5,720 nucleotides of DNA from a virus: the IMG/VR virus record IMGVR_UViG_3300031933_000269, positions 1 through 5,720 of that record; one strand, given 5' to 3'. Position numbers and translations under genes: made by a program. Below, in pieces: positions 1-5,720 of this stretch. The notes below the pieces were generated by a model. It did no database searches and was not told where the DNA came from. It was given only the letters and a program-made list of their open reading frames with translations. How positions within the stretch are numbered: the first letter of the stretch is position 1; each line of letters starts with the position of its first letter.

Positions 1-55
1 TGGCTTCTTGATCTCCTGATTGGTCTTCTTGAGGATATGCCTGTTCCTGCCTTTT
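1..55. repeat. Terminal direct repeat, copy 1 (circular-closure overlap)
   Basis: tggcttcttgatctcctgattggtcttcttgaggatatgcctgttcctgcctttt is identical, base by base, to 5666-5720. Confidence 0.95.
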
Positions 56-204: not shown

Positions 205-1341
205 ATGTCTATCGTTGCTTATACTGGCCTGCCGGGTTCCGGTAAATCATATGGCGTTGTAGAAAATGTTATATTGCCCTGCTTGAAAGAGGGGAGGCCG
301 ATTGTAACTAACCTGCCTCTTAAGCTCGGCGAATTGCAGGAATGGTGCAGGGTGAATAACTCGCCTCAACCCAGAATTGATATAGTCGATCTTGAAAATG
401 TTGCTCAATCAGAAGATGAAGGTTTCCTTTCGATGAGGTACGGCGCTGTTCATGTGTTTGATGAGGTGTGGCGCGTTTGGCCGTCTGGTCAAAAGGTAAC
501 TCAAGCTCCTCCAGGGCATCGGGAATATTTTGCAGAGCATAGGCATCAGGTTGATGCCTCTGGCCGTTCGACTGAGATCGTTCTTATAACTCAGGACTTG
601 GCGCAGTTGGCAAGTTGGGTGCGTCAACTGATTGATGAGACATTTAGAGCGCAGAAACTTAATCACGTTGGTCAAGATAAGCGCTACCGTGTTGACGTGT
701 TTCAAGGGGCTGTCACGGGTCAAAAGCCGCCAGAGTCTCGCCGTCTGCGTCAATTTTATGGCTCATACTCCCCAAAAGTATATTCCCTGTATCAGTCTGC
801 AACAAAGGCCCAGAAAAGCGGAATGCACGGGGCAGGTAAGGAACAAAAGGCGGATAAGCGCGCGAATATACTTCGGTCCCCAAAAATTCTGTTCTCTCTC
901 ATCGGTGCGCCTGTTCTCGGTGTTTCGGCCTTGGTTGCTGTTTTTAGTATGCTGCAAAGTGGTTTTGTTACTGGTGGTGAGCCTCCATTAAAGGCTGAGA
1001 CAAAGTCTTCTGTCTCTGCTTCTGTTGCTGCTCCTGCTGTTCATGTTGTGGATCATCCTGAGCCTGCCTCTGTTGCTCCTGAGCCTGTCTATTCTGATCC
1101 TGATGATGCTCTTCCCTCTGTTTCGCGTGATTGGAAGCTTGTGGGTTCCGTTCGCATTCCTGACGGCTTTTTCTATGTCGTCAATAACAATGTTGGTTAC
1201 CGTTATGTTGATCCTTCCGCCTGTCACGAGTATCCCGGCGGTTTTCAAATGTGGTGCCACGTTGATGGTAAACGTGTTGACCAAACAACGGGTTATCAAA
1301 CTGCTACCATGGTTCGGACTCCTGCAAAAAATGCAATGTGA
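205..1341 (+). CDS. Zot/pI-like phage assembly P-loop NTPase (378 aa)
   Basis: N-terminal Walker A GLPGSGKS (nt 226-249). Walker B-like HVFDEVW. A basic amphipathic stretch then a TM segment ILFSLIGAPVLGVSALVAVFSML at about aa 228-250. A periplasmic C-terminal domain of about 125 aa with a Pro/Ser/Ala/Val-rich linker. This is the typical Zot (pI) architecture and position. Confidence 0.9.
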   Translation: MSIVAYTGLPGSGKSYGVVENVILPCLKEGRPIVTNLPLKLGELQEWCRVNNSPQPRIDIVDLENVAQSEDEGFLSMRYGAVHVFDEVWRVWPSGQKVTQAPPGHREYFAEHRHQVDASGRSTEIVLITQDLAQLASWVRQLIDETFRAQKLNHVGQDKRYRVDVFQGAVTGQKPPESRRLRQFYGSYSPKVYSLYQSATKAQKSGMHGAGKEQKADKRANILRSPKILFSLIGAPVLGVSALVAVFSMLQSGFVTGGEPPLKAETKSSVSASVAAPAVHVVDHPEPASVAPEPVYSDPDDALPSVSRDWKLVGSVRIPDGFFYVVNNNVGYRYVDPSACHEYPGGFQMWCHVDGKRVDQTTGYQTATMVRTPAKNAM

Positions 1342-2020: not shown

Positions 2021-2046
2021 TCCCCCCGTCTAGTAATACGGGGGGA
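2021..2046 (+). repeat. GC-rich hairpin with AT-rich loop; candidate plus-strand origin or nick-site hairpin
   Basis: tCCCCCCGT (2021-2029), loop ctagtaat (2030-2037), ACGGGGGGa (2038-2046): a perfect 9-bp stem. No T-run follows on either strand, so it is not a canonical intrinsic terminator. AGTCCCC recurs at 2019-2025 and 2048-2054, which allows an alternative GGGG/CCCC pairing (2042-2045 with 2051-2054). Confidence 0.6.
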
Positions 2047-2122
2047 AAGTCCCCAGGGCACCAAACTATGACGTTGCTTGCTTTTCCGGTTTTGGGGTGT
2101 TACAAATTACGCGCAATAAAAA

Positions 2123-2185: not shown

Positions 2186-3268
2186 ATGTCTGCCACTATC
2201 TGCGATACGCTTTCGCTGTCTTTTCCTATTGATTACCTTCGTTCCTTTTTCTGCTCGAACCCTGCGCGGTACTGGGCGTCTTTCGGTCGTCCTGATCTTC
2301 ACAATGACCAGCTCCGGGGGTCTGCATATGATCTGGTATCCGGGGATTTCGCAGACTGGGGCGGCTTGTCTGAGTCCCTGCCTGCTGACTTTTGGGCTGA
2401 GCTTTTGTCTGACTGGCTGCATGATGTGACCGGCGTTGCTTTCCGTGTTCAGGCGCTTGGCGGTGGCCGTAACAACTTTCAAAACTCTGCCCGTTTTGAT
2501 GGTGGTTTCATCGCTTGGGGCGGCAATAACGTCATCCGGCAGTCTGACGGACTCATGCATAAGACACCTGAGCGGGTGCAGGTGTACTTCGATTCTACCG
2601 GCTGTGAGCGGCTCCGCTCTGCGCTCGTACATATCGCTGATCGGCTGGATTTACACGCTGGTCGGGTCACTCGCTTGGATGTGGCGTTTGACCTTATGGA
2701 TGGTCAAATTTCGATTGATGATGGCGAAAAAGCATACCATCTGGGGAAATTTACCGGCAATGGTCGCCCACCTAAAGCCCTTAGGATCAAGGAGTTGTCT
2801 GATACCGGTTGCGGTGAAACTCTGTACATTGGCAACCGGAAAAACGGCAAAATGCTGCGTATTTATGAAAAGGGCAAACAGTTGGGTGATTCCCAGTCGA
2901 CTTGGGTTCGGGCTGAGGTTGAGATCGGTCGAAAGGACCGCGAAATACCCTCTGACGCTCTTCGTGATCTGGACAGGGTTTTCTCCGAGTCGTACCCCTA
3001 CTGCGCTCAAATCCTTTCCGAATATGGTGCTCACGTCTGCGAGCACGAGGATTCGCTTATAAAAACAGCCCGAAAAAAGGCTCAAATTAGCCTGTTACAT
3101 CTCGTTCGTCATGCCCAGGTTGCTTATGGTAAGTTGGTTGATACCATGCTCAATCTGGGTCACTCTGCATCTGAAGTCGTTGAAGCGCTGCGTGTTGAGG
3201 GTCGCCCTTCTCGGCTGTCCACCTGCGAACTTGGTCTGCGCCAAAGTCCTCAACTAGTGCCTGCTTAA
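2186..3268 (+). CDS. Rolling-circle replication initiation protein, Rep_trans family (RstA/pT181 RepC-like), 360 aa
   Basis: Motifs VTRLDVAFDL and GETLYIGNRKNGKMLRIYEKGKQLG....WVRAEVEI fit the Rep_trans (Pfam PF02486-type) signatures RxDxAxD and YxGxRxSxxxxRxYDKxxE....WxRxE. SD-like GGGGAA lies 9-10 nt before the ATG. The position upstream of the ssDNA-binding and coat module is typical of inoviruses. Confidence 0.85.
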   Translation: MSATICDTLSLSFPIDYLRSFFCSNPARYWASFGRPDLHNDQLRGSAYDLVSGDFADWGGLSESLPADFWAELLSDWLHDVTGVAFRVQALGGGRNNFQNSARFDGGFIAWGGNNVIRQSDGLMHKTPERVQVYFDSTGCERLRSALVHIADRLDLHAGRVTRLDVAFDLMDGQISIDDGEKAYHLGKFTGNGRPPKALRIKELSDTGCGETLYIGNRKNGKMLRIYEKGKQLGDSQSTWVRAEVEIGRKDREIPSDALRDLDRVFSESYPYCAQILSEYGAHVCEHEDSLIKTARKKAQISLLHLVRHAQVAYGKLVDTMLNLGHSASEVVEALRVEGRPSRLSTCELGLRQSPQLVPA

Positions 3269-3386
3269 CCACTGCTGTCACATAGTCTTGAATGCTGATA
3301 TGATTTTCTGCGCTCATGCGTTTCAGTGCTTGCTGTAACTGGGGTGCAATCCTTACAACCCCGGCAGGCGTCCTGCTCTTGCTCAT
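3150..3386 (-). CDS. Ribbon-helix-helix (Arc/MetJ/CopG-like) putative phage repressor, 78 aa
   Basis: On the minus strand, MSKSRTPAGVVRIAPQLQQALKRMSAENHISIQDYVTAVVKQALVE... has a beta-strand (VVRIAP), helix (QLQQALKRMSAE), turn (NHIS), helix (IQDYVTAVVKQAL) pattern. A strong SD, AGGAGA (complement of 3394-3399), lies 7 nt upstream of ATG 3386, so I prefer this start to the track start at 3419. It is the only minus-strand gene and is divergent from the structural operon, as rstR-type repressors are. Confidence 0.6.
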   Translation of the reverse strand: MSKSRTPAGVVRIAPQLQQALKRMSAENHISIQDYVTAVVKQALVEDFGADQVRRWTAEKGDPQHAALQRLQMQSDPD

Positions 3387-3501
3387 GGGTTGATCTCCTG
3401 TTTTTTGTAATTGTGGCACAAATAACTCTTGACGTATGCAGGTGCTCTATGTAACTTGTCATTAGTTCTTTGTAACCCGTAACCATCATGAGGTTTATAT
3501 C
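3387..3501. promoter_or_regulatory. Divergent control region between the RHH repressor gene and the structural operon
   Basis: Plus-strand candidate promoter: TTGACG (3429-3434), 17 nt, TAACTT (3452-3457). Minus-strand candidate: extended -10 TGcCACAAT (complement of about 3410-3418). Palindrome TTGTGgCACAA (3411-3421). TGTAA(T/C) repeats at 3406-3411, 3450-3455 and 3471-3476, plus GTAAC at 3479-3483. SD GAGG lies 8 nt before ATG 3502. Confidence 0.45.
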
Positions 3502-4037: not shown

Positions 4038-4172
4038 ATGGATTATTCAGTAATTACAGGTTCCATCGACTTTGCTACTGCCCTGACTGCTGTCGGTGCT
4101 GTCGCGGCCGCTCTGGGTGCTCTTTATATTGGCATGAAAGGTGCCAAAGCTGTTTTGAACTTCCTGAAGTAA
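4038..4172 (+). CDS. Major coat protein, leaderless Pf3-type, 44 aa (not in the supplied ORF track)
   Basis: My translation is MDYSVITGSIDFATALTAVGAVAAALGALYIGMKGAKAVLNFLK*. SD GAGGTGA (4027-4033) lies 4 nt before the ATG. The layout is acidic N-terminus (D2, D11), Ala/Gly/Val-rich hydrophobic core, basic C-terminus (K34, K37, K44). No signal peptide. Same length as the Pf3 coat (MQSVITDVTGQLTAVQADITTIGGAIIVLAAVVLGIRWIKAQFF) and shares its SVIT and LTAV strings. Confidence 0.8.
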   Translation: MDYSVITGSIDFATALTAVGAVAAALGALYIGMKGAKAVLNFLK

Positions 4173-4189: not shown

Positions 4190-4213
4190 GGGGGGGCTGC
4201 GGTCCCCTTTTTT
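4190..4213 (+). terminator. Candidate intrinsic terminator after the major coat gene
   Basis: A G-run (4190-4196) pairs with CCCC (4204-4207), giving a 4-5 bp all-GC stem, and is followed by T6 (4208-4213). The position matches the strong terminator after gene VIII in Ff phages. The stem is short, so confidence is modest. Confidence 0.45.
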
Positions 4214-4240: not shown

Positions 4241-5584
4241 GTGGATATGGACTTTTTTCGTTCTTGGCTGCGCCTGCGCGTATGCTGCCTTGAGAAGTTT
4301 TTAAAACTGTCAAAACCTCGTAATAGGCTTTTGCCCTTATTGTGCTCGCTGCCGCTCTTTTTGTCGCATCAAGTTAACGCGATTGACTGGGCAGCGGTTG
4401 ATGGCGATGCAAACTATTGTCCCTCCGGTAATGATACATATAGCGCCTGCGCGAATTTTTTACCATACCAATATGGGCGCGCTGGCCCAGCTGTAGTTGT
4501 TAATAACTGCACTGCAAACCCGCCTTCTGTTGTAATAGATGATTATCTTGAGAACGGCGTACGCATGCGCAAACGGCGGACGATAACATTTGGCCCCAAT
4601 TCTGAAGGCGAGTGTTTAACTGATCCAGAACCTGAAGAGCCTCCAGAGTGCCCTAGTCAGGGCGATCAAAAGTTTTTCTCCGGTTATACAAATACAGTTG
4701 CCGAATGCACCGCTTCTTCTGGCACATTTTCATCTGATGGTTGCGGTTATGAGGTCGGCATTGCTGTCGTATCTCCTGAGCCTGTCGTTTGTGCAAATGG
4801 TCCGGGCACCTGTTTTTTCGAGGGCATGTATTCTTGCACCTTTTCTGCATCTGCTACCGGTGACCCATTAGGAGGTCAACCATTCGAGTGGCCTCAGCCT
4901 GCGTCCCCTGATGAGGGTGGCGAGGATCCGCCCGAAGATCCTGATCTTCCTGTTGATCCTGATCCGACTGATCCAACCGATCCAACCGATCCAACCGATC
5001 CAACCGATCCGACTGATCCGACTGATCCGACTGATCCGACTGATCCGACTGATTCGACTGATCCAGCTTATCCGACTGATCCAACTGATCCGACTGATCC
5101 AACTGATCCCACTGATCCGACTGATCCTGACGCCGGGCCAAATGATGGCGGTACATCTGGACCAGGTGGCGCGGGTTCTGATCCCTCAACGGGTACTGGC
5201 GGCGATTCGGATTCAAATGGCGATGGTACTACTGGTGACGGTACTGGAGATTTGAATGGTGACGGTGAAGGTGGCGACTGTGACCCTGCAACTGAGGTTT
5301 GTGGTTCTGGTGAAGGTTATCCCGAACTGGAAGAGACCGACGGCGGTATTGAGGACTATTGGGCAAGGCTTAAGGCAGTTCCGATATTGGAAGCTGCTTC
5401 TGATATTGGTTCCGGTTTAGGCTCTGGCGGTTCGTGTTCTCAAATATCGGTCAATACTGGCTATTTCGGAAGCTGGTCTACAACTATGCACTGTGATTTA
5501 TTTTCACAAATATCAGGAATGCTTTCCGCTATTATGATCGGCTTATGGTCGTTGATGGCTGTTCGTGTTGTCCTGTCCGCTTAA
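4241..5584 (+). CDS. pIII-like adsorption/minor coat protein (447 aa from GTG 4241; ATG 4247 is the more likely start)
   Basis: Signal-peptide-like KPRNRLLPLLCSLPLFLSHQVNA|IDW. A Cys-rich N-terminal region in two parts. A (DPT)n repeat and a Gly/Asp/Ser/Thr-rich linker. A C-terminal TM anchor MLSAIMIGLWSLMAVRVVLSA. This is the g3p-type modular layout and sits between coat and pVI. GGGGGA (4232-4237) is 9 nt from ATG 4247 but only 3 nt from GTG 4241. Confidence 0.8.
   Translation: MDMDFFRSWLRLRVCCLEKFLKLSKPRNRLLPLLCSLPLFLSHQVNAIDWAAVDGDANYCPSGNDTYSACANFLPYQYGRAGPAVVVNNCTANPPSVVIDDYLENGVRMRKRRTITFGPNSEGECLTDPEPEEPPECPSQGDQKFFSGYTNTVAECTASSGTFSSDGCGYEVGIAVVSPEPVVCANGPGTCFFEGMYSCTFSASATGDPLGGQPFEWPQPASPDEGGEDPPEDPDLPVDPDPTDPTDPTDPTDPTDPTDPTDPTDPTDPTDSTDPAYPTDPTDPTDPTDPTDPTDPDAGPNDGGTSGPGGAGSDPSTGTGGDSDSNGDGTTGDGTGDLNGDGEGGDCDPATEVCGSGEGYPELEETDGGIEDYWARLKAVPILEAASDIGSGLGSGGSCSQISVNTGYFGSWSTTMHCDLFSQISGMLSAIMIGLWSLMAVRVVLSA
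4955..5131 (+). repeat. About 20 tandem copies of a 9-nt unit (GATCCGACT / GATCCAACC) encoding (Asp-Pro-Thr)n
   Basis: Units read in order: gatcct; gatccgact x1; gatccaacc x4; gatccgact x5; gattcgact; gatccagct; tatccgact; then gatccaact, gatccgact, gatccaact, gatcccact, gatccgact; gatcctgac. All are in frame within the pIII-like CDS. Confidence 0.95.
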
Positions 5585-5599
5585 TATTGGGGGTTAAAA

Positions 5600-5720
5600 A
5601 TGTTGGAAGCATTTGCCAATTTTATTAAGGACGTTCTTCTCTGGGCGCCTCTGAAGTTTATGGAGTGGCTTCTTGATCTCCTGATTGGTCTTCTTGAGGA
5701 TATGCCTGTTCCTGCCTTTT
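5600..5720 (+). CDS. pVI/Ace-like minor coat protein, 5' part (continues at base 56 of the window after the overlap)
   Basis: ATG 5600 is preceded by GGGGG (5589-5593) at 6-nt spacing, 16 nt after the pIII-like stop. MLEAFANFIKDVLLWAPLKFMEWLLDLLIGLLEDMPVPAF... runs off the window end in frame. Confidence 0.7.
   Translation, partial: MLEAFANFIKDVLLWAPLKFMEWLLDLLIGLLEDMPVPAF
5666..5720. repeat. Terminal direct repeat, copy 2 (circular-closure overlap)
   Basis: Identical to 1-55. It lies inside the ORF that starts at 5600, and the reading frame is kept across the junction. Confidence 0.95.

What the first reader, a model, noticed from the sequence alone, without database searches (positions are those of the whole stretch)
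4955..5131. A hyper-repetitive (Asp-Pro-Thr)n linker in the adsorption protein is built from a 9-nt unit that carries GATC in almost every copy
About 20 in-frame 9-nt units replace the Gly-rich linkers of Ff g3p with a rigid, acidic, proline-containing DPT repeat: 10 perfect DPT, then DST-DPA-YPT, then 5 DPT. A Gly/Asp/Ser/Thr-rich tract follows (about 5132-5280). The array holds homogeneous sub-blocks (4x gatccaacc, then 5x gatccgact), the signature of recent slippage or unequal recombination. Because the unit is a multiple of 3, copy-number change would vary linker length without breaking the frame, giving possible host-range or tip-length variability. Eighteen of the units contain GATC, and three more GATC lie just upstream (about 4925, 4937, 4943). 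That is about 21 Dam/MboI-type sites in about 210 nt, an extreme local density. It could create a heavily methylated patch, a mismatch-repair or SeqA-binding hotspot, or a restriction liability. All three frames and the opposite strand stay open here, which explains the spurious track ORFs.
Basis: partly seen in the sequence, partly recalled or inferred. Interest (0 to 1): 0.7.

Follow-up and report, generated by a model that had tools for sequence, protein, structure and literature searches.

The report
Expanded Asp-Pro-Thr spacer in phage adsorption protein
A small filamentous phage carries an unusually long (18-unit) version of an Asp-Pro-Thr spacer that many filamentous phages have in their host-attachment protein, and its dense GATC sites appear to be a side effect of how Asp-Pro is encoded, so the finding is real but ordinary.

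Summary
There are 18 in-frame 9-nt units (4964-5125) with the stated sub-blocks, and 21 GATC sites in 4925-5126.

The window is a complete circular inovirus genome of 5665 bp. The gene is the g3p-position adsorption protein, lying between the major coat gene and the g6p/Zot genes.

The array is not unique:
- Pseudomonas Pf attachment proteins have (PTD)3 followed by a Gly/Asp tract.
- 39 IMG/VR inovirus loci (33 unique g3p ORFs) carry (DPT)5-19 followed by "DPG + Gly/Asp/Ser".
- At 18 units the window is the second longest found.

Copy number does vary. The closest relative (84-90% nt identity) has 15 units in a different block order. Three other clusters of close relatives differ by one unit.

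GATC is a by-product of GAT·CCN. In 33 homologous arrays Asp is GAT in 56% of codons, against 57% elsewhere in the same genes. The rest of this genome has 23 GATC against 21 expected.

The part of g3p that really differs between relatives is the N1 domain, which is swapped outright.

Verdict: a new, expanded member of a known kind, of low to moderate interest.

The parts
4241..5584 (+). g3p-position adsorption / minor coat protein gene. It is 447 aa from GTG 4241; JGI aa from ATG 4247.
   Evidence: ORF list. Gene call on the source contig. It lies between the 44-aa major coat gene and the DUF2523/g6p-like and Zot genes. The C-terminal domain matches proteins named 'attachment protein' and 128 family representatives.
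4241..4381 (+). N-terminal leader / signal peptide, ...LLPLLCSLPLFLSHQVNA | IDW
   Evidence: Read directly from the sequence. Conserved in L002. AF2 predicts helices at 2-21 and 28-42. No signal-peptide predictor was run.
4382..4645 (+). N1, a variable and presumably receptor-binding domain that is swapped relative to the closest relative
   Evidence: Window 4378-4642 does not align to L002 at DNA level although both flanks do. The protein alignment shows about 15% identity here against about 95% elsewhere. No homologues were found and AF2 pLDDT is below 50.
4646..4891 (+). N2, a conserved Cys-containing beta-rich domain preceded by the short DPEPEEPPECP hinge
   Evidence: About 90-97% identical to L002. 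AF2 pLDDT is 71-88 with beta strands at 141-207. Weak alignment to the equivalent region of P0003.
4892..5128 (+). Pro-rich acidic spacer: 79 aa with 26 Pro, 23 Asp, 17 Thr, no Lys or Arg, net charge -26
   Evidence: Composition. AF2 predicts no secondary structure, with pLDDT about 42-46.
4964..5125 (+). Core array of 18 units of 9 nt (CCN-ACN-GAT = Pro-Thr-Asp), including one STD and one PAY unit
   Evidence: TRF; unit tables. L002 has 15 units.
4925..5126 (.). Cluster of 21 GATC sites, each formed by Asp GAT followed by Pro CCN (one by GAT-CTT)
   Evidence: GATC positions. Codon reading.
5129..5278 (+). Gly/Asp/Ser/Thr-rich flexible tract (50 aa, 19 Gly, 10 Asp)
   Evidence: Composition. 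The same tract follows (DPT)n in Pf attachment proteins and in 39 IMG/VR inovirus g3p loci.
5279..5584 (+). C-terminal domain: the CDPATEVC motif, a conserved core and a C-terminal hydrophobic anchor (...LWSLMAVRVVLSA; anchor about 5495-5578)
   Evidence: phmmer on 1.84 billion representatives gave 128 hits, nearly all at the C-terminus of 400-600 aa proteins. Alignment to P0003. AF2 helix 417-444 with pLDDT 73-85.
4190..4209 (+). Terminator-like hairpin with a T-run between the major coat gene and g3p
   Evidence: Pattern scan.
4038..4172 (+). Major coat protein gene (44 aa), synteny anchor upstream of g3p
   Evidence: ORF list. The same 44-aa gene precedes g3p in all relatives.
5600..5720 (+). 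Start of the g6p-like gene (DUF2523, 88 aa), which continues across the circular junction to window 201
   Evidence: Pfam DUF2523, E 3.4e-5. 55-nt terminal redundancy and 5665-bp unit.
205..1341 (+). Zot / pI assembly ATPase gene, synteny anchor downstream of g3p and g6p
   Evidence: Pfam Zot, E 2.8e-26.

Best explanation
**What it is.** The array encodes an expanded Pro-Thr-Asp spacer in the adsorption protein (g3p type) of a small temperate-type inovirus. The host is probably Marinobacterium-like.

**Layout of the protein.** The order is signal peptide, a swappable N1 domain, a conserved N2 domain, a proline-rich strongly acidic segment (79 aa, 18 PTD units), a flexible Gly/Asp tract (50 aa), and a conserved C-terminal domain with the membrane/virion anchor.

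**Likely role (inferred).** The two-part linker tethers the receptor-binding domains to the virion tip and sets how far they can reach. The Pro-rich part is probably an extended, non-collapsing, negatively charged rod, about 24 nm long if polyproline-II-like. The Gly-rich part is a flexible joint.

**How it arose.** The (PTD)n + Gly/Asp design is ancestral and common in this g3p family, usually with 2-8 units. In this lineage one GAT-carrying 9-nt unit was amplified to 15-18 copies by slipped-strand mispairing or unequal recombination. It has since gained or lost units at two or more places.

**GATC.** The dense GATC sites are a passive consequence of Asp(GAT)-Pro(CCN) being copied 18 times.

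**Shown:** anatomy, homology, copy-number difference, and codon statistics.
**Inferred:** stiffness, reach, and the slippage mechanism.
For: **Gene identity**
- Synteny is g8p - this gene - DUF2523/g6p - Zot.
- The C-terminal domain aligns to P0003 (pairwise E 2e-12 over a span that includes the linker). P0003's near-identical relative P0009 is named 'attachment protein'. The same domain matches 128 family representatives.
- AF2 gives a confident beta N2 domain and C-terminal helix, with an unstructured low-confidence linker.

**Ancestral design**
- Pf attachment proteins read ...TPTDPTDPTDPTTPGGDGG(G/D/N-rich)...TCDPAKENC.
- The Marinobacterium sp. AK62 prophage has (PTD)2 + (STGDG)n + CDPTK. 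L010 has DTDPTDP + (GGGDT)4(GGTD)6 + ECDPAKEEC.
- 39 of 72 IMG/VR stretches with (DPT)>=5 are g3p-position genes. Zot lies 0.9-1.25 kb downstream and 'DPG + Gly/Asp/Ser' follows the array.
- Among 35 unique ORFs, including the window and L002, the unit counts are 5 (20 ORFs), 6 (7), 8 (3), 14, 15, 15, 18 (window) and 19.

**Turnover**
- L002 and L005 have 15 units against 18 in the window. Relative to the shared Ala-containing unit there are 9+5 units against 11+6, so there were at least two separate events.
- Three other clusters of close relatives differ by one unit.

**GATC as a by-product**
- Arrays have GAT 119 / GAC 95 (56%). The rest of the same ORFs has 625/466 (57%).
- The Vibrio g3p linker is all GAC and has no GATC.
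- This genome outside the array has 23 GATC against 21.2 expected.
- GAT-coded DPT arrays occur in at least 120 genome stretches across many phyla, including Streptomyces, Planctomycetota and Paenibacillus.
- The array has no special ssDNA fold (z = -0.33).

**Literature.** g3p domains are joined by low-complexity linkers, and linker-prone residues include G, E, N, T, D, S and P (PMC12477597; PMC10424213).
Against: - Stiffness and polyproline-II geometry are inferred from composition only. AF2 simply returns low confidence for this stretch.
- No reads were available, so variation within a population is unknown. Identical arrays in two samples of the L002 type, and in two assemblies of this genome, argue against very fast change.
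- All 17 Asp codons in the window's array and all 15 in L002's are GAT. Pro and Thr third positions vary in the same arrays. That is compatible with weak constraint on GATC, but the number of independent mutations is too small to test it.
- Pure-GAT arrays outnumber pure-GAC arrays 29 to 2 in IMG/VR. The codon-neutral scan removes the asymmetry for the inovirus set. I did not analyse the non-inovirus arrays in the same way.
- The N1 and N2 roles (pilus and TolA binding) are assumed by analogy. The fold search found nothing.
Confidence: 0.8

Rival explanations
1. The GATC cluster is itself functional. It would be a heavily Dam-methylated patch that binds SeqA, directs MutH, times replication or expression of the replicative form, or interacts with GATC-specific restriction.
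For: - 21 GATC in about 200 nt is a density I recall (own knowledge, not checked) as exceeding that of E. coli oriC.
- Every Asp codon in the arrays of both the window and L002 is GAT, although Pro and Thr third positions vary.
- Pure-GAT arrays outnumber pure-GAC arrays 29 to 2 in IMG/VR.
Against: - Across 33 unique inovirus g3p genes, homologous arrays use GAT at the background rate, 56% against 57%.
- An inovirus g3p from Vibrio, a genus with Dam (own knowledge), uses only GAC in its linker and has no GATC there.
- Close relatives with other linker types (L008, L010, L012) have only 1-3 GATC in the linker.
- The rest of this genome shows neither enrichment nor avoidance of GATC. With 23 sites already present, the extra sites do not change restriction susceptibility in kind.
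- GAT-coded DPT arrays are common in phyla that lack Dam/SeqA/MutH, which is my own knowledge for those phyla.
- The sites are spaced 9 bp apart, so they are not in helical phase.
- The candidate host, Marinobacterium, lies outside the classical Dam clade. This is own knowledge; PMC7174414 notes only that GATC oriC motifs are confined to taxa with a dam gene.
Confidence: 0.04
2. The array length, or the array itself, is an assembly artefact caused by collapse or expansion of a short tandem repeat.
For: - Short-read assemblies break in the linker repeats of relatives. L003 ends inside the array. L004 starts and ends inside it and carries a 1-nt error. L006 has both ends inside a 54-nt repeat. 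L009 starts inside a (GE)n run.
Against: - The longest exact internal repeat in the window's array is 39 nt, shorter than the 55-nt terminal overlap of the contig. That overlap suggests k = 55.
- Two independent contigs of this genome (the window and L001, with different overlaps) have identical arrays and differ only at 1603 and 1689.
- L002 and L005, from different samples, have identical 15-unit arrays.
- The array is in frame and interrupted by unique variant units (STD, PAY, CCC).
- Comparable arrays of 14-19 units occur in unrelated inovirus contigs.
Confidence: 0.06
3. The array is an adaptive, rapidly length-variable 'ruler' (a contingency-type locus). Changes in copy number would tune the reach of the receptor-binding domains to the host envelope or pilus, and so affect host range.
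For: - Copy number differs between relatives, with at least two independent events.
- The sub-blocks are homogeneous.
- The unit length keeps the frame.
- Linker composition is strikingly labile among phages with near-identical C-domains: DPT x18, DPT x15, an 18-aa NNGGGSGTPTAPTDPTDP unit repeated at least 4 times, and (GE)n.
- For Ff, the distal g3p linker is reported to matter for infection (Nilsson et al. 2000). I know this from the title cited and from memory; the paper is not held.
Against: - Arrays are identical across samples of the same strain.
- Most family members manage with 5-6 units, or with none.
- The obvious host-range determinant that differs between the window and L002 is the N1 domain.
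- No read-level or phenotypic data are available.
Confidence: 0.15
4. The triplet repeat forms a defined structure or modification site. It could be a collagen-like helix that joins the g3p copies at the tip, or a run of O-glycosylated threonines.
For: - The only PDB sequence hits are collagen-like BclA (GPT)n and the (Asp-Hyp-Gly)10 peptide.
- Thr/Pro-rich repeats are O-glycosylation targets in some bacteria. A DPTDPTDP stretch in S. mutans SpaP is listed among predicted sites (PMC5856776).
Against: - A collagen helix needs Gly at every third residue. The 79-aa segment has 2 Gly, and neither lies in the repeat.
- The PDB hits are low-complexity matches.
- No glycosylation machinery is encoded in the 5.7-kb genome.
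- AF2 predicts no structure here.
Confidence: 0.03

Closest known systems
Pf-type (Pseudomonas aeruginosa Pf1/Pf4-like) attachment protein g3p (CoaB)
   Same: - Same gene position: coat B gene, then g3p, then DUF2523, then Zot.
- Same linker layout: (PTD)n, then a Gly/Asp(/Asn)-rich tract, then a CDPAxExC motif, then the C-terminal anchor.
- Length variants of 397-439 aa exist among strains.
   Different: - Pf has 3 PTD units and uses both GAT and GAC. The window has 18 units, all GAT.
- The N-terminal domains are unrelated.
- Most Pf proteins have a different C-terminal subtype (…YVGRxxGG / …LILLKD). Only the P0003/P0009 variant shares the window's …VRVxLSA type.
Ff (M13/fd/f1) g3p with its Gly-rich linkers G1 and G2
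   Same: - Modular layout: N1, linker, N2, linker, C-terminal anchor.
- The linkers are low-complexity and built from short in-frame repeats. They are flexible enough to be invisible in virion structures (PMC10424213; PMC12477597).
   Different: - Ff linkers are Gly/Ser/Glu. Here a Pro/Thr/Asp segment with 2 Gly in 79 aa precedes a Gly/Asp tract.
- There is no detectable sequence or fold similarity of the N domains.
IMG/VR inovirus g3p genes with (DPT)5-19 linkers (for example L047 with 19 units, L024 with 15, L194 with 14) and the Vibrio prophage g3p P0021
   Same: - g3p position upstream of Zot.
- The (DPT)n run passes directly into 'DPG + Gly/Asp/Ser'.
- Several share the window's C-terminal type (…VR[IV]xLS[AS]).
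   Different: - Zot is at most about 25% identical to the window's where it was measured.
- Most have only 5-6 units and mixed GAT/GAC codons.
- P0021 uses PT(D/E/N)P units encoded entirely with GAC.
Pro/Thr-rich and Pro-acidic extended linkers of secreted bacterial proteins (glycoside hydrolase PT linkers, the TonB (EP)n(KP)n rod)
   Same: - Pro recurs every second or third residue, with no hydrophobic residues and an extended, spacer-like character.
- Many unrelated secreted enzymes matched the window's array: chitinase, S8 protease and NlpC/P60 domains, and large proteins in marine Gammaproteobacteria.
   Different: These are cellular enzymes or energy transducers, not virion proteins. The resemblance is compositional, and the statement about their stiffness comes from my own knowledge.
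Bacillus anthracis BclA collagen-like region (GPT)n
   Same: A triplet amino-acid repeat encoded by a 9-nt-compatible tandem array. As far as I recall, its copy number differs between strains and sets the length of a surface filament. It was the best PDB sequence hit.
   Different: BclA has Gly at every third position and forms a trimeric collagen helix. (DPT)n has no Gly and cannot form one.
GATC clusters bound by SeqA or methylated by Dam (for example E. coli oriC)
   Same: High local GATC density.
   Different: - Here GATC is explained by the codon pair GAT·CCN.
- It is not conserved in homologous arrays.
- It lies inside a coding repeat with 9-bp spacing.
- The Dam status of the host is unknown.

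Membership tests
Inovirus g3p-type adsorption / minor coat protein | The gene lies between the major coat gene (g8p) and the g6p-like gene and pI/Zot gene | tested here: met
   The 44-aa coat gene is at 4038-4172 and this ORF at 4241-5584. DUF2523 runs from 5600 to 201 across the junction, and Zot is at 205-1341. All relatives have the same order.
Inovirus g3p-type adsorption / minor coat protein | An N-terminal signal peptide and a C-terminal hydrophobic anchor | tested here: met
   The leader ...LLPLLCSLPLFLSHQVNA|IDW was read from the sequence; no predictor was run. AF2 predicts a C-terminal helix at 417-444 with pLDDT 73-85, ending ...LWSLMAVRVVLSA.
Inovirus g3p-type adsorption / minor coat protein | A low-complexity linker separates the N-terminal receptor-binding region from the C-terminal domain | tested here: met
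   129 aa (nt 4892-5278) with 33 Asp, 29 Pro, 23 Thr, 21 Gly and no Lys or Arg. The criterion is described in PMC12477597.
Inovirus g3p-type adsorption / minor coat protein | Sequence homology to proteins annotated or shown to be attachment proteins | tested here: met
   The C-terminal 103 aa gave 128 hits at the C-termini of 400-600 aa proteins. Pairwise alignment to P0003 gave E 2e-12, partly driven by the linker. Its near-identical relative P0009 is named 'attachment protein [Pseudomonas aeruginosa]'. There is no Pfam family.
Inovirus g3p-type adsorption / minor coat protein | Binds a primary receptor (pilus) and TolA, and is required for infection | not testable with these tools
   The fold search of the AF2 model gave no match with E below 1. 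The N1 domain has no homologues.
Ff-type glycine-rich g3p linker | Gly-dominated composition ((E)GGGS-type repeats) | tested here: not met
   The repeat segment has 2 Gly in 79 aa. Only the following 50-aa tract is Gly-rich, with 19 Gly.
(PTD)n + Gly/Asp linker type of Pf-like inovirus g3p | A run of Pro-Thr-Asp units followed directly by a Gly/Asp-rich tract, upstream of a Cys-x-x-x-x-x-x-Cys motif and the C-domain | tested here: met
   The window reads ...(PTD)18-PDAGPNDGG...GDGEGGD-CDPATEVC. The same order occurs in Pf proteins, in L008 and L010, and in 39 IMG/VR loci.
Collagen-like triple-helix repeat | Gly at every third residue | tested here: not met
   The units are Asp-Pro-Thr, and there is no Gly in the array.
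Dam/SeqA-type functional GATC cluster | Local GATC density far above background | tested here: met
   21 sites in about 200 nt, against 23 in the other 5449 nt.
Dam/SeqA-type functional GATC cluster | GATC is conserved beyond what the coding sequence requires | tested here: not met
   Homologous arrays use GAT in 56% of Asp codons, against 57% in the rest of the same genes. The Vibrio linker has 0 GATC. Linkers of L008, L010 and L012 have 1-3 GATC.
Dam/SeqA-type functional GATC cluster | The host encodes Dam (and SeqA/MutH), and the sites carry 6mA | not testable with these tools
   The host is only inferred, from 77% Zot identity to a Marinobacterium sp. AK62 prophage. No way to query that genome for dam was available.
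Slippage-prone simple-sequence contingency locus | Tandem identical units whose copy number differs between close relatives | tested here: met
   18 units against 15 with a different block order. 6 against 5 in three other clusters.
Slippage-prone simple-sequence contingency locus | Copy-number change switches expression on and off by frameshift, and variation is seen within populations | tested here: not met
   The unit is 9 nt, so the frame is always kept. Arrays are identical in different samples of the same strain. Read-level variation could not be examined.

The most novel reading that the evidence does not exclude
The (DPT)n segment may be an evolvable molecular ruler. Its copy number would change quickly through slippage during rolling-circle replication. 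It would be selected to match the distance that the receptor-binding domains must span in a given host envelope, so that length changes accompany N1 swaps when the phage shifts host. In this lineage the co-amplified GATC sites could then matter secondarily, for methylation or mismatch repair, if the host has Dam.
Probability: 0.1. Interest if true: 0.5.

Novelty: new member of a known kind. Interest (0 to 1): 0.22.

Why it matters
The finding has three modest uses.

1. It documents that a Pro-Thr-Asp spacer followed by a Gly/Asp joint is a recurrent linker design in inovirus adsorption proteins. It is not a peculiarity of one contig. Unit number ranges from 2 to 19.
2. That is useful for annotating g3p genes, which have no Pfam family. 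It is also useful for choosing domain boundaries when receptor-binding domains are transplanted into M13.
3. It is a clean worked example of an apparently striking DNA-motif density being a hitch-hiking effect of codon-pair amplification.

It does not open a new mechanism.

Tried and rejected
**Searches that found nothing**
- Whole-genome megablast and g3p tblastn against 50,697 GenBank phage records: no match.
- The search for related loci in IMG/VR with g3p and with Zot: nothing.
- The search for related loci in GTDB genomes with Zot: nothing.
- The word-indexed protein search with the repeat and Gly tract deleted found no homologue. So N1 is an orphan, and the first search was dominated by low-complexity hits.
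- Rfam: no family in the window.

**Structure**
- AF2 with a 14-sequence alignment gave a low-confidence model (pTM 0.27).
- The Foldseek PDB search on that model was uninformative.
- The PDB sequence search returned only low-complexity collagen-like hits.
- Folding the array as ssDNA gave z = -0.33, so a structured-DNA role was dropped.

**Literature**
- The Nilsson et al. 2000 paper on the distal g3p linker is not held.
- No paper in the library contains the PTDPTDPT, DPTDPTDP or TDPTDPTD strings in a phage context.

**Unusable or untestable**
- L004's array was set aside as unreliable. The contig starts and ends inside it and has a 1-nt error.
- The Dam status of the host could not be tested.

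**An argument I discarded**
- I first read the 29:2 excess of pure-GAT over pure-GAC arrays as possible GATC selection. The codon-neutral GAY scan removed it for the inovirus set.
Full report
**1. What the window is**

The first 55 nt recur at the end of the window, so it is a circular genome with a 5665-bp unit. The same genome is contig Ga0168647_101965 of JGI metagenome 3300029199 (L001). That contig differs from the window only at positions 1603 and 1689.

The gene content is that of a small CTX/Pf-like inovirus without its own secretin:
- Zot/pI at 205-1341
- an HTH protein
- a Rep_trans initiator at 2186-3268
- a small ORF on the minus strand with weak ribbon-helix-helix similarity
- an RstB-like ssDNA-binding protein
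- a 78-aa ORF
- a 44-aa major coat protein at 4038-4172
- the 447-aa ORF at 4241-5584
- a DUF2523 (g6p-like) gene that runs across the junction

A terminator-like hairpin at 4190-4209 separates the coat gene from the long ORF. No record in the GenBank phage collection is close.

**2. Checking the observation**

Tandem Repeats Finder reports a 9-nt array at 4959-5127 with 18.8 copies. The 4x GATCCAACC and 5x GATCCGACT blocks are also present.

There are 21 GATC sites in 4925-5126. The rest of the genome has 23, against 21.2 expected. A Gly/Asp/Ser/Thr tract follows at 5129-5278.

Two details are wrong.
- One forward frame is closed 16 times by TGA at the ACT|GAT junctions.
- The array does not replace a Gly-rich linker. 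It precedes one.

**3. What the protein is**

Position, leader, C-terminal anchor and low-complexity middle all fit the g3p adsorption protein.

The C-terminal 103 aa were searched exhaustively against 1.84 billion representatives. This gave 128 proteins, almost all matching at their extreme C-terminus and mostly 400-600 aa long. The closest named relative is a Pseudomonas aeruginosa 'attachment protein' (P0009), which is nearly identical to P0003. P0003 aligns to the window's g3p from N2 to the C-terminus.

AF2 with a shallow alignment gives four regions:
- a confident beta-rich N2 domain (residues about 131-210)
- a confident C-terminal helix (417-444)
- no structure in the linker (pLDDT about 40-46)
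- no confidence for N1

The fold and PDB searches added nothing.

**4. The linker design is ancestral and widespread**

- Pf-type attachment proteins read ...TPTDPTDPTDPTTPGGDGG...(about 70 aa of Gly/Asp/Asn)...TCDPAKENC.
- The window reads ...(PTD)18 PDAGPNDGG...(50 aa of Gly/Asp)...DCDPATEVC.

The closer relatives were found through Zot at 71-96% identity. Their linkers are:
- Marinobacterium sp. AK62 prophage (L008): (PTD)2, then (STGDG)n
- L010: DTDPTDP, then (GGGDT)4 and (GGTD)6
- L012-L016: Gly/Asp/Ser/Thr only
- L006: at least four copies of an 18-aa unit, NNGGGSGTPTAPTDPTDP
- L009: a (GE)n run, with a C-domain almost identical to the window's

A codon-neutral DNA scan of IMG/VR for (GAY-CCN-ACN)>=5 found 72 stretches. 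Thirty-nine of them are g3p-position genes. In these, Zot lies 0.9-1.25 kb downstream and 'DPG + Gly/Asp/Ser' follows the array directly. Several have the window's C-terminal type.

Among 35 unique ORFs the unit counts are 5 (20 ORFs), 6 (7), 8 (3), 14, 15, 15, 18 and 19. The window's array is therefore the second longest.

In contrast, none of 105 full-length representatives retrieved through the C-domain has three or more such units. So long arrays are lineage-specific expansions of a short common motif.

An unrelated Vibrio inovirus prophage also has a PT(D/E/N)P linker of about 25 units in its g3p.

**5. Copy-number variation**

One metagenome scan found L002 (NPIG01002899.1), which is 84-90% identical to the window in DNA. 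Its array has 15 units with a different block order.

Using the single Ala-containing unit as a landmark, L002 has 9+5 units and the window has 11+6. At least two separate gains or losses have therefore occurred.

Three other clusters of near-identical g3p genes differ by one unit.

Within a strain the arrays are stable. L002 equals L005, from another sample. The window's array equals that of L001.

Assemblies often break in these repeats (L003, L004, L006, L009). The window's array, however, has no exact internal repeat longer than 39 nt, which is below the 55-nt contig overlap. Collapse is therefore unlikely.

**6. GATC**

GATC arises wherever Asp is GAT and the next codon is Pro CCN.

Outside the array this genome uses GAT and GAC at 65:34. 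For Asp-Pro pairs the ratio is 5:4.

In the 33 unique inovirus g3p genes with homologous arrays (window and L002 excluded), Asp in the array is GAT 119 times and GAC 95 times, which is 56%. In the rest of the same genes the figures are 625 and 466, which is 57%.

Other evidence points the same way:
- The Vibrio linker is GAC 9 times out of 9 and has no GATC.
- Pf uses GAT, GAT, GAC.
- Linkers of L008, L010 and L012 hold 1-3 GATC.
- GAT-coded DPT arrays occur in at least 120 genome stretches from many phyla.
- In one Clostridia MAG (L071) the array is 34 GAT to 1 GAC, while the rest of the gene is 6 to 36. That shows amplification from a single unit regardless of codon preference.
- The array has no unusual ssDNA fold.

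GATC density is therefore best read as a hitch-hiker.

Two caveats remain. Both the window's and L002's arrays have no GAC at all. The Dam status of the host could not be tested.

**7. Mechanism**

Shown:
- a two-part linker
- a 79-aa segment with 26 Pro, 23 Asp and 17 Thr, net charge -26, and no basic or large hydrophobic residues
- a 50-aa Gly/Asp tract after it

Inferred from the known behaviour of Pro-rich linkers (own knowledge):
- The first part is extended and stiff. It would be about 24 nm long if polyproline-II-like.
- The second part is a flexible joint.

Together they would hold N1-N2 away from the virion tip and give them reach toward the receptor and co-receptor. This is the role given to the Ff linkers (PMC10424213; PMC12477597).

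The array grew by slippage or unequal recombination of a 9-nt unit.

The host-range difference between the window and L002 is far more likely to lie in N1. N1 is unrelated between the two, whereas the signal peptide, N2, the linker and the C-domain are about 95% identical.

**8. Novelty and verdict**

The kind is known: a g3p with a repetitive low-complexity linker. The specific (PTD)n + Gly/Asp layout is already present in annotated Pf attachment proteins.

I found no paper that describes the motif in a phage context.

The window adds an unusually long member, and with the survey above it gives a picture of how common this linker type is.

The GATC, Dam and restriction ideas are not supported. 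Length variability is supported on an evolutionary scale only. Interest is low to moderate.

Noticed in passing
window 4378-4642 (g3p aa about 49-135) against L002 2330-2607: The N1 domain of the adsorption protein is completely different between the window and its closest relative. The signal peptide, N2, linker and C-domain are about 95% identical. This looks like a cassette-like swap of the receptor-binding domain. The window's N1 has no detectable homologue in 5.8 billion proteins.
   Followed up: partly
window 1-55 and 5666-5720: An exact 55-nt terminal redundancy. The window is a complete circular genome with a 5665-bp unit, cut inside the g6p-like gene.
   Followed up: yes
L006 5287-6033 and 1-475 (JGI 3300042283): A relative (Zot 84% identical) has a higher-order linker repeat. 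At least four copies of a 54-nt / 18-aa unit, NNGGGSGTPTAPTDPTDP, each contain the same CCGACTGATCCGACTGATCC core. Both contig ends lie inside this repeat, so its true copy number is unknown.
   Followed up: partly
L009 1-368 (Logan SRR25400202): A prophage next to smpB and an integrase has a g3p C-domain nearly identical to the window's, but a (Gly-Glu)n linker in place of the DPT and Gly/Asp parts. Linker composition turns over faster than the flanking domains.
   Followed up: no
L017 3085-4857 (Vibrio sp. V33_P6A3T137, WXWK01000077.1): An unrelated Vibrio inovirus prophage has a 590-aa g3p-position protein with a PT(D/E/N)P linker of about 25 units. The linker is encoded entirely with GAC, so it has no GATC. 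A PF00145 DNA methylase gene lies just downstream of the prophage's secretin gene.
   Followed up: partly
L071 (uncultured Clostridia MAG, CAMUYE010000003.1), array near 939-988: An 897-aa ORF has a 35-unit DPT-type array with Asp codons GAT 34 and GAC 1. The rest of the ORF has GAT 6 and GAC 36. This is a clear case of a rare-codon unit being amplified. L099 (Stenotrophomonas), L120 and L059 show the same trend.
   Followed up: no
L051, L073, L094, L096, L118, L050, L101, L086: GAT-coded DPT arrays, some repeated several times within one gene, occur in large proteins of marine Gammaproteobacteria. The genera are Oleispira, Thalassolituus, Bermanella, Reinekea, Microbulbifer and Halopseudomonas. 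This is the same broad group as the inferred host, so the spacer type is common in that environment.
   Followed up: no
window 1007-1103 (C-terminal half of Zot): Two short in-frame tandem repeats (12-nt and 21-nt periods) encode a Pro/Ala/Val/Ser-rich segment, ...SVSASVAAPAVHVVDHPEPASVAPEPVYSDPDD, just after the predicted transmembrane stretch of pI. This is another low-complexity linker in the same genome.
   Followed up: no
window 2023-2062; L003 2115-2160: A G/C-rich inverted repeat (CCCCCCGTCTAGTAATACGGGGGG) lies in the intergenic region upstream of rep. In L003, a 23-nt unit from this region (AATACGGGGGGAAAGTCCCCAGG) is exactly duplicated in tandem. It could belong to the origin, the packaging signal or the attachment region.
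   Followed up: no
window 3150-3419, minus strand: An 89-aa ORF is antisense to the 3' end of rep. It has weak ribbon-helix-helix similarity (FitA-like RHH, E 0.046), and JGI calls a 78-aa gene here. It is probably the repressor of this temperate-type inovirus.
   Followed up: partly
L004 (NPID01002183.1), both contig ends: This contig of the L002-type genome starts and ends inside the DPT array and carries a 1-nt deletion there (CCACTGATC). It shows how short-read assemblers mishandle this region. Its apparent 13-unit array should not be trusted.
   Followed up: yes
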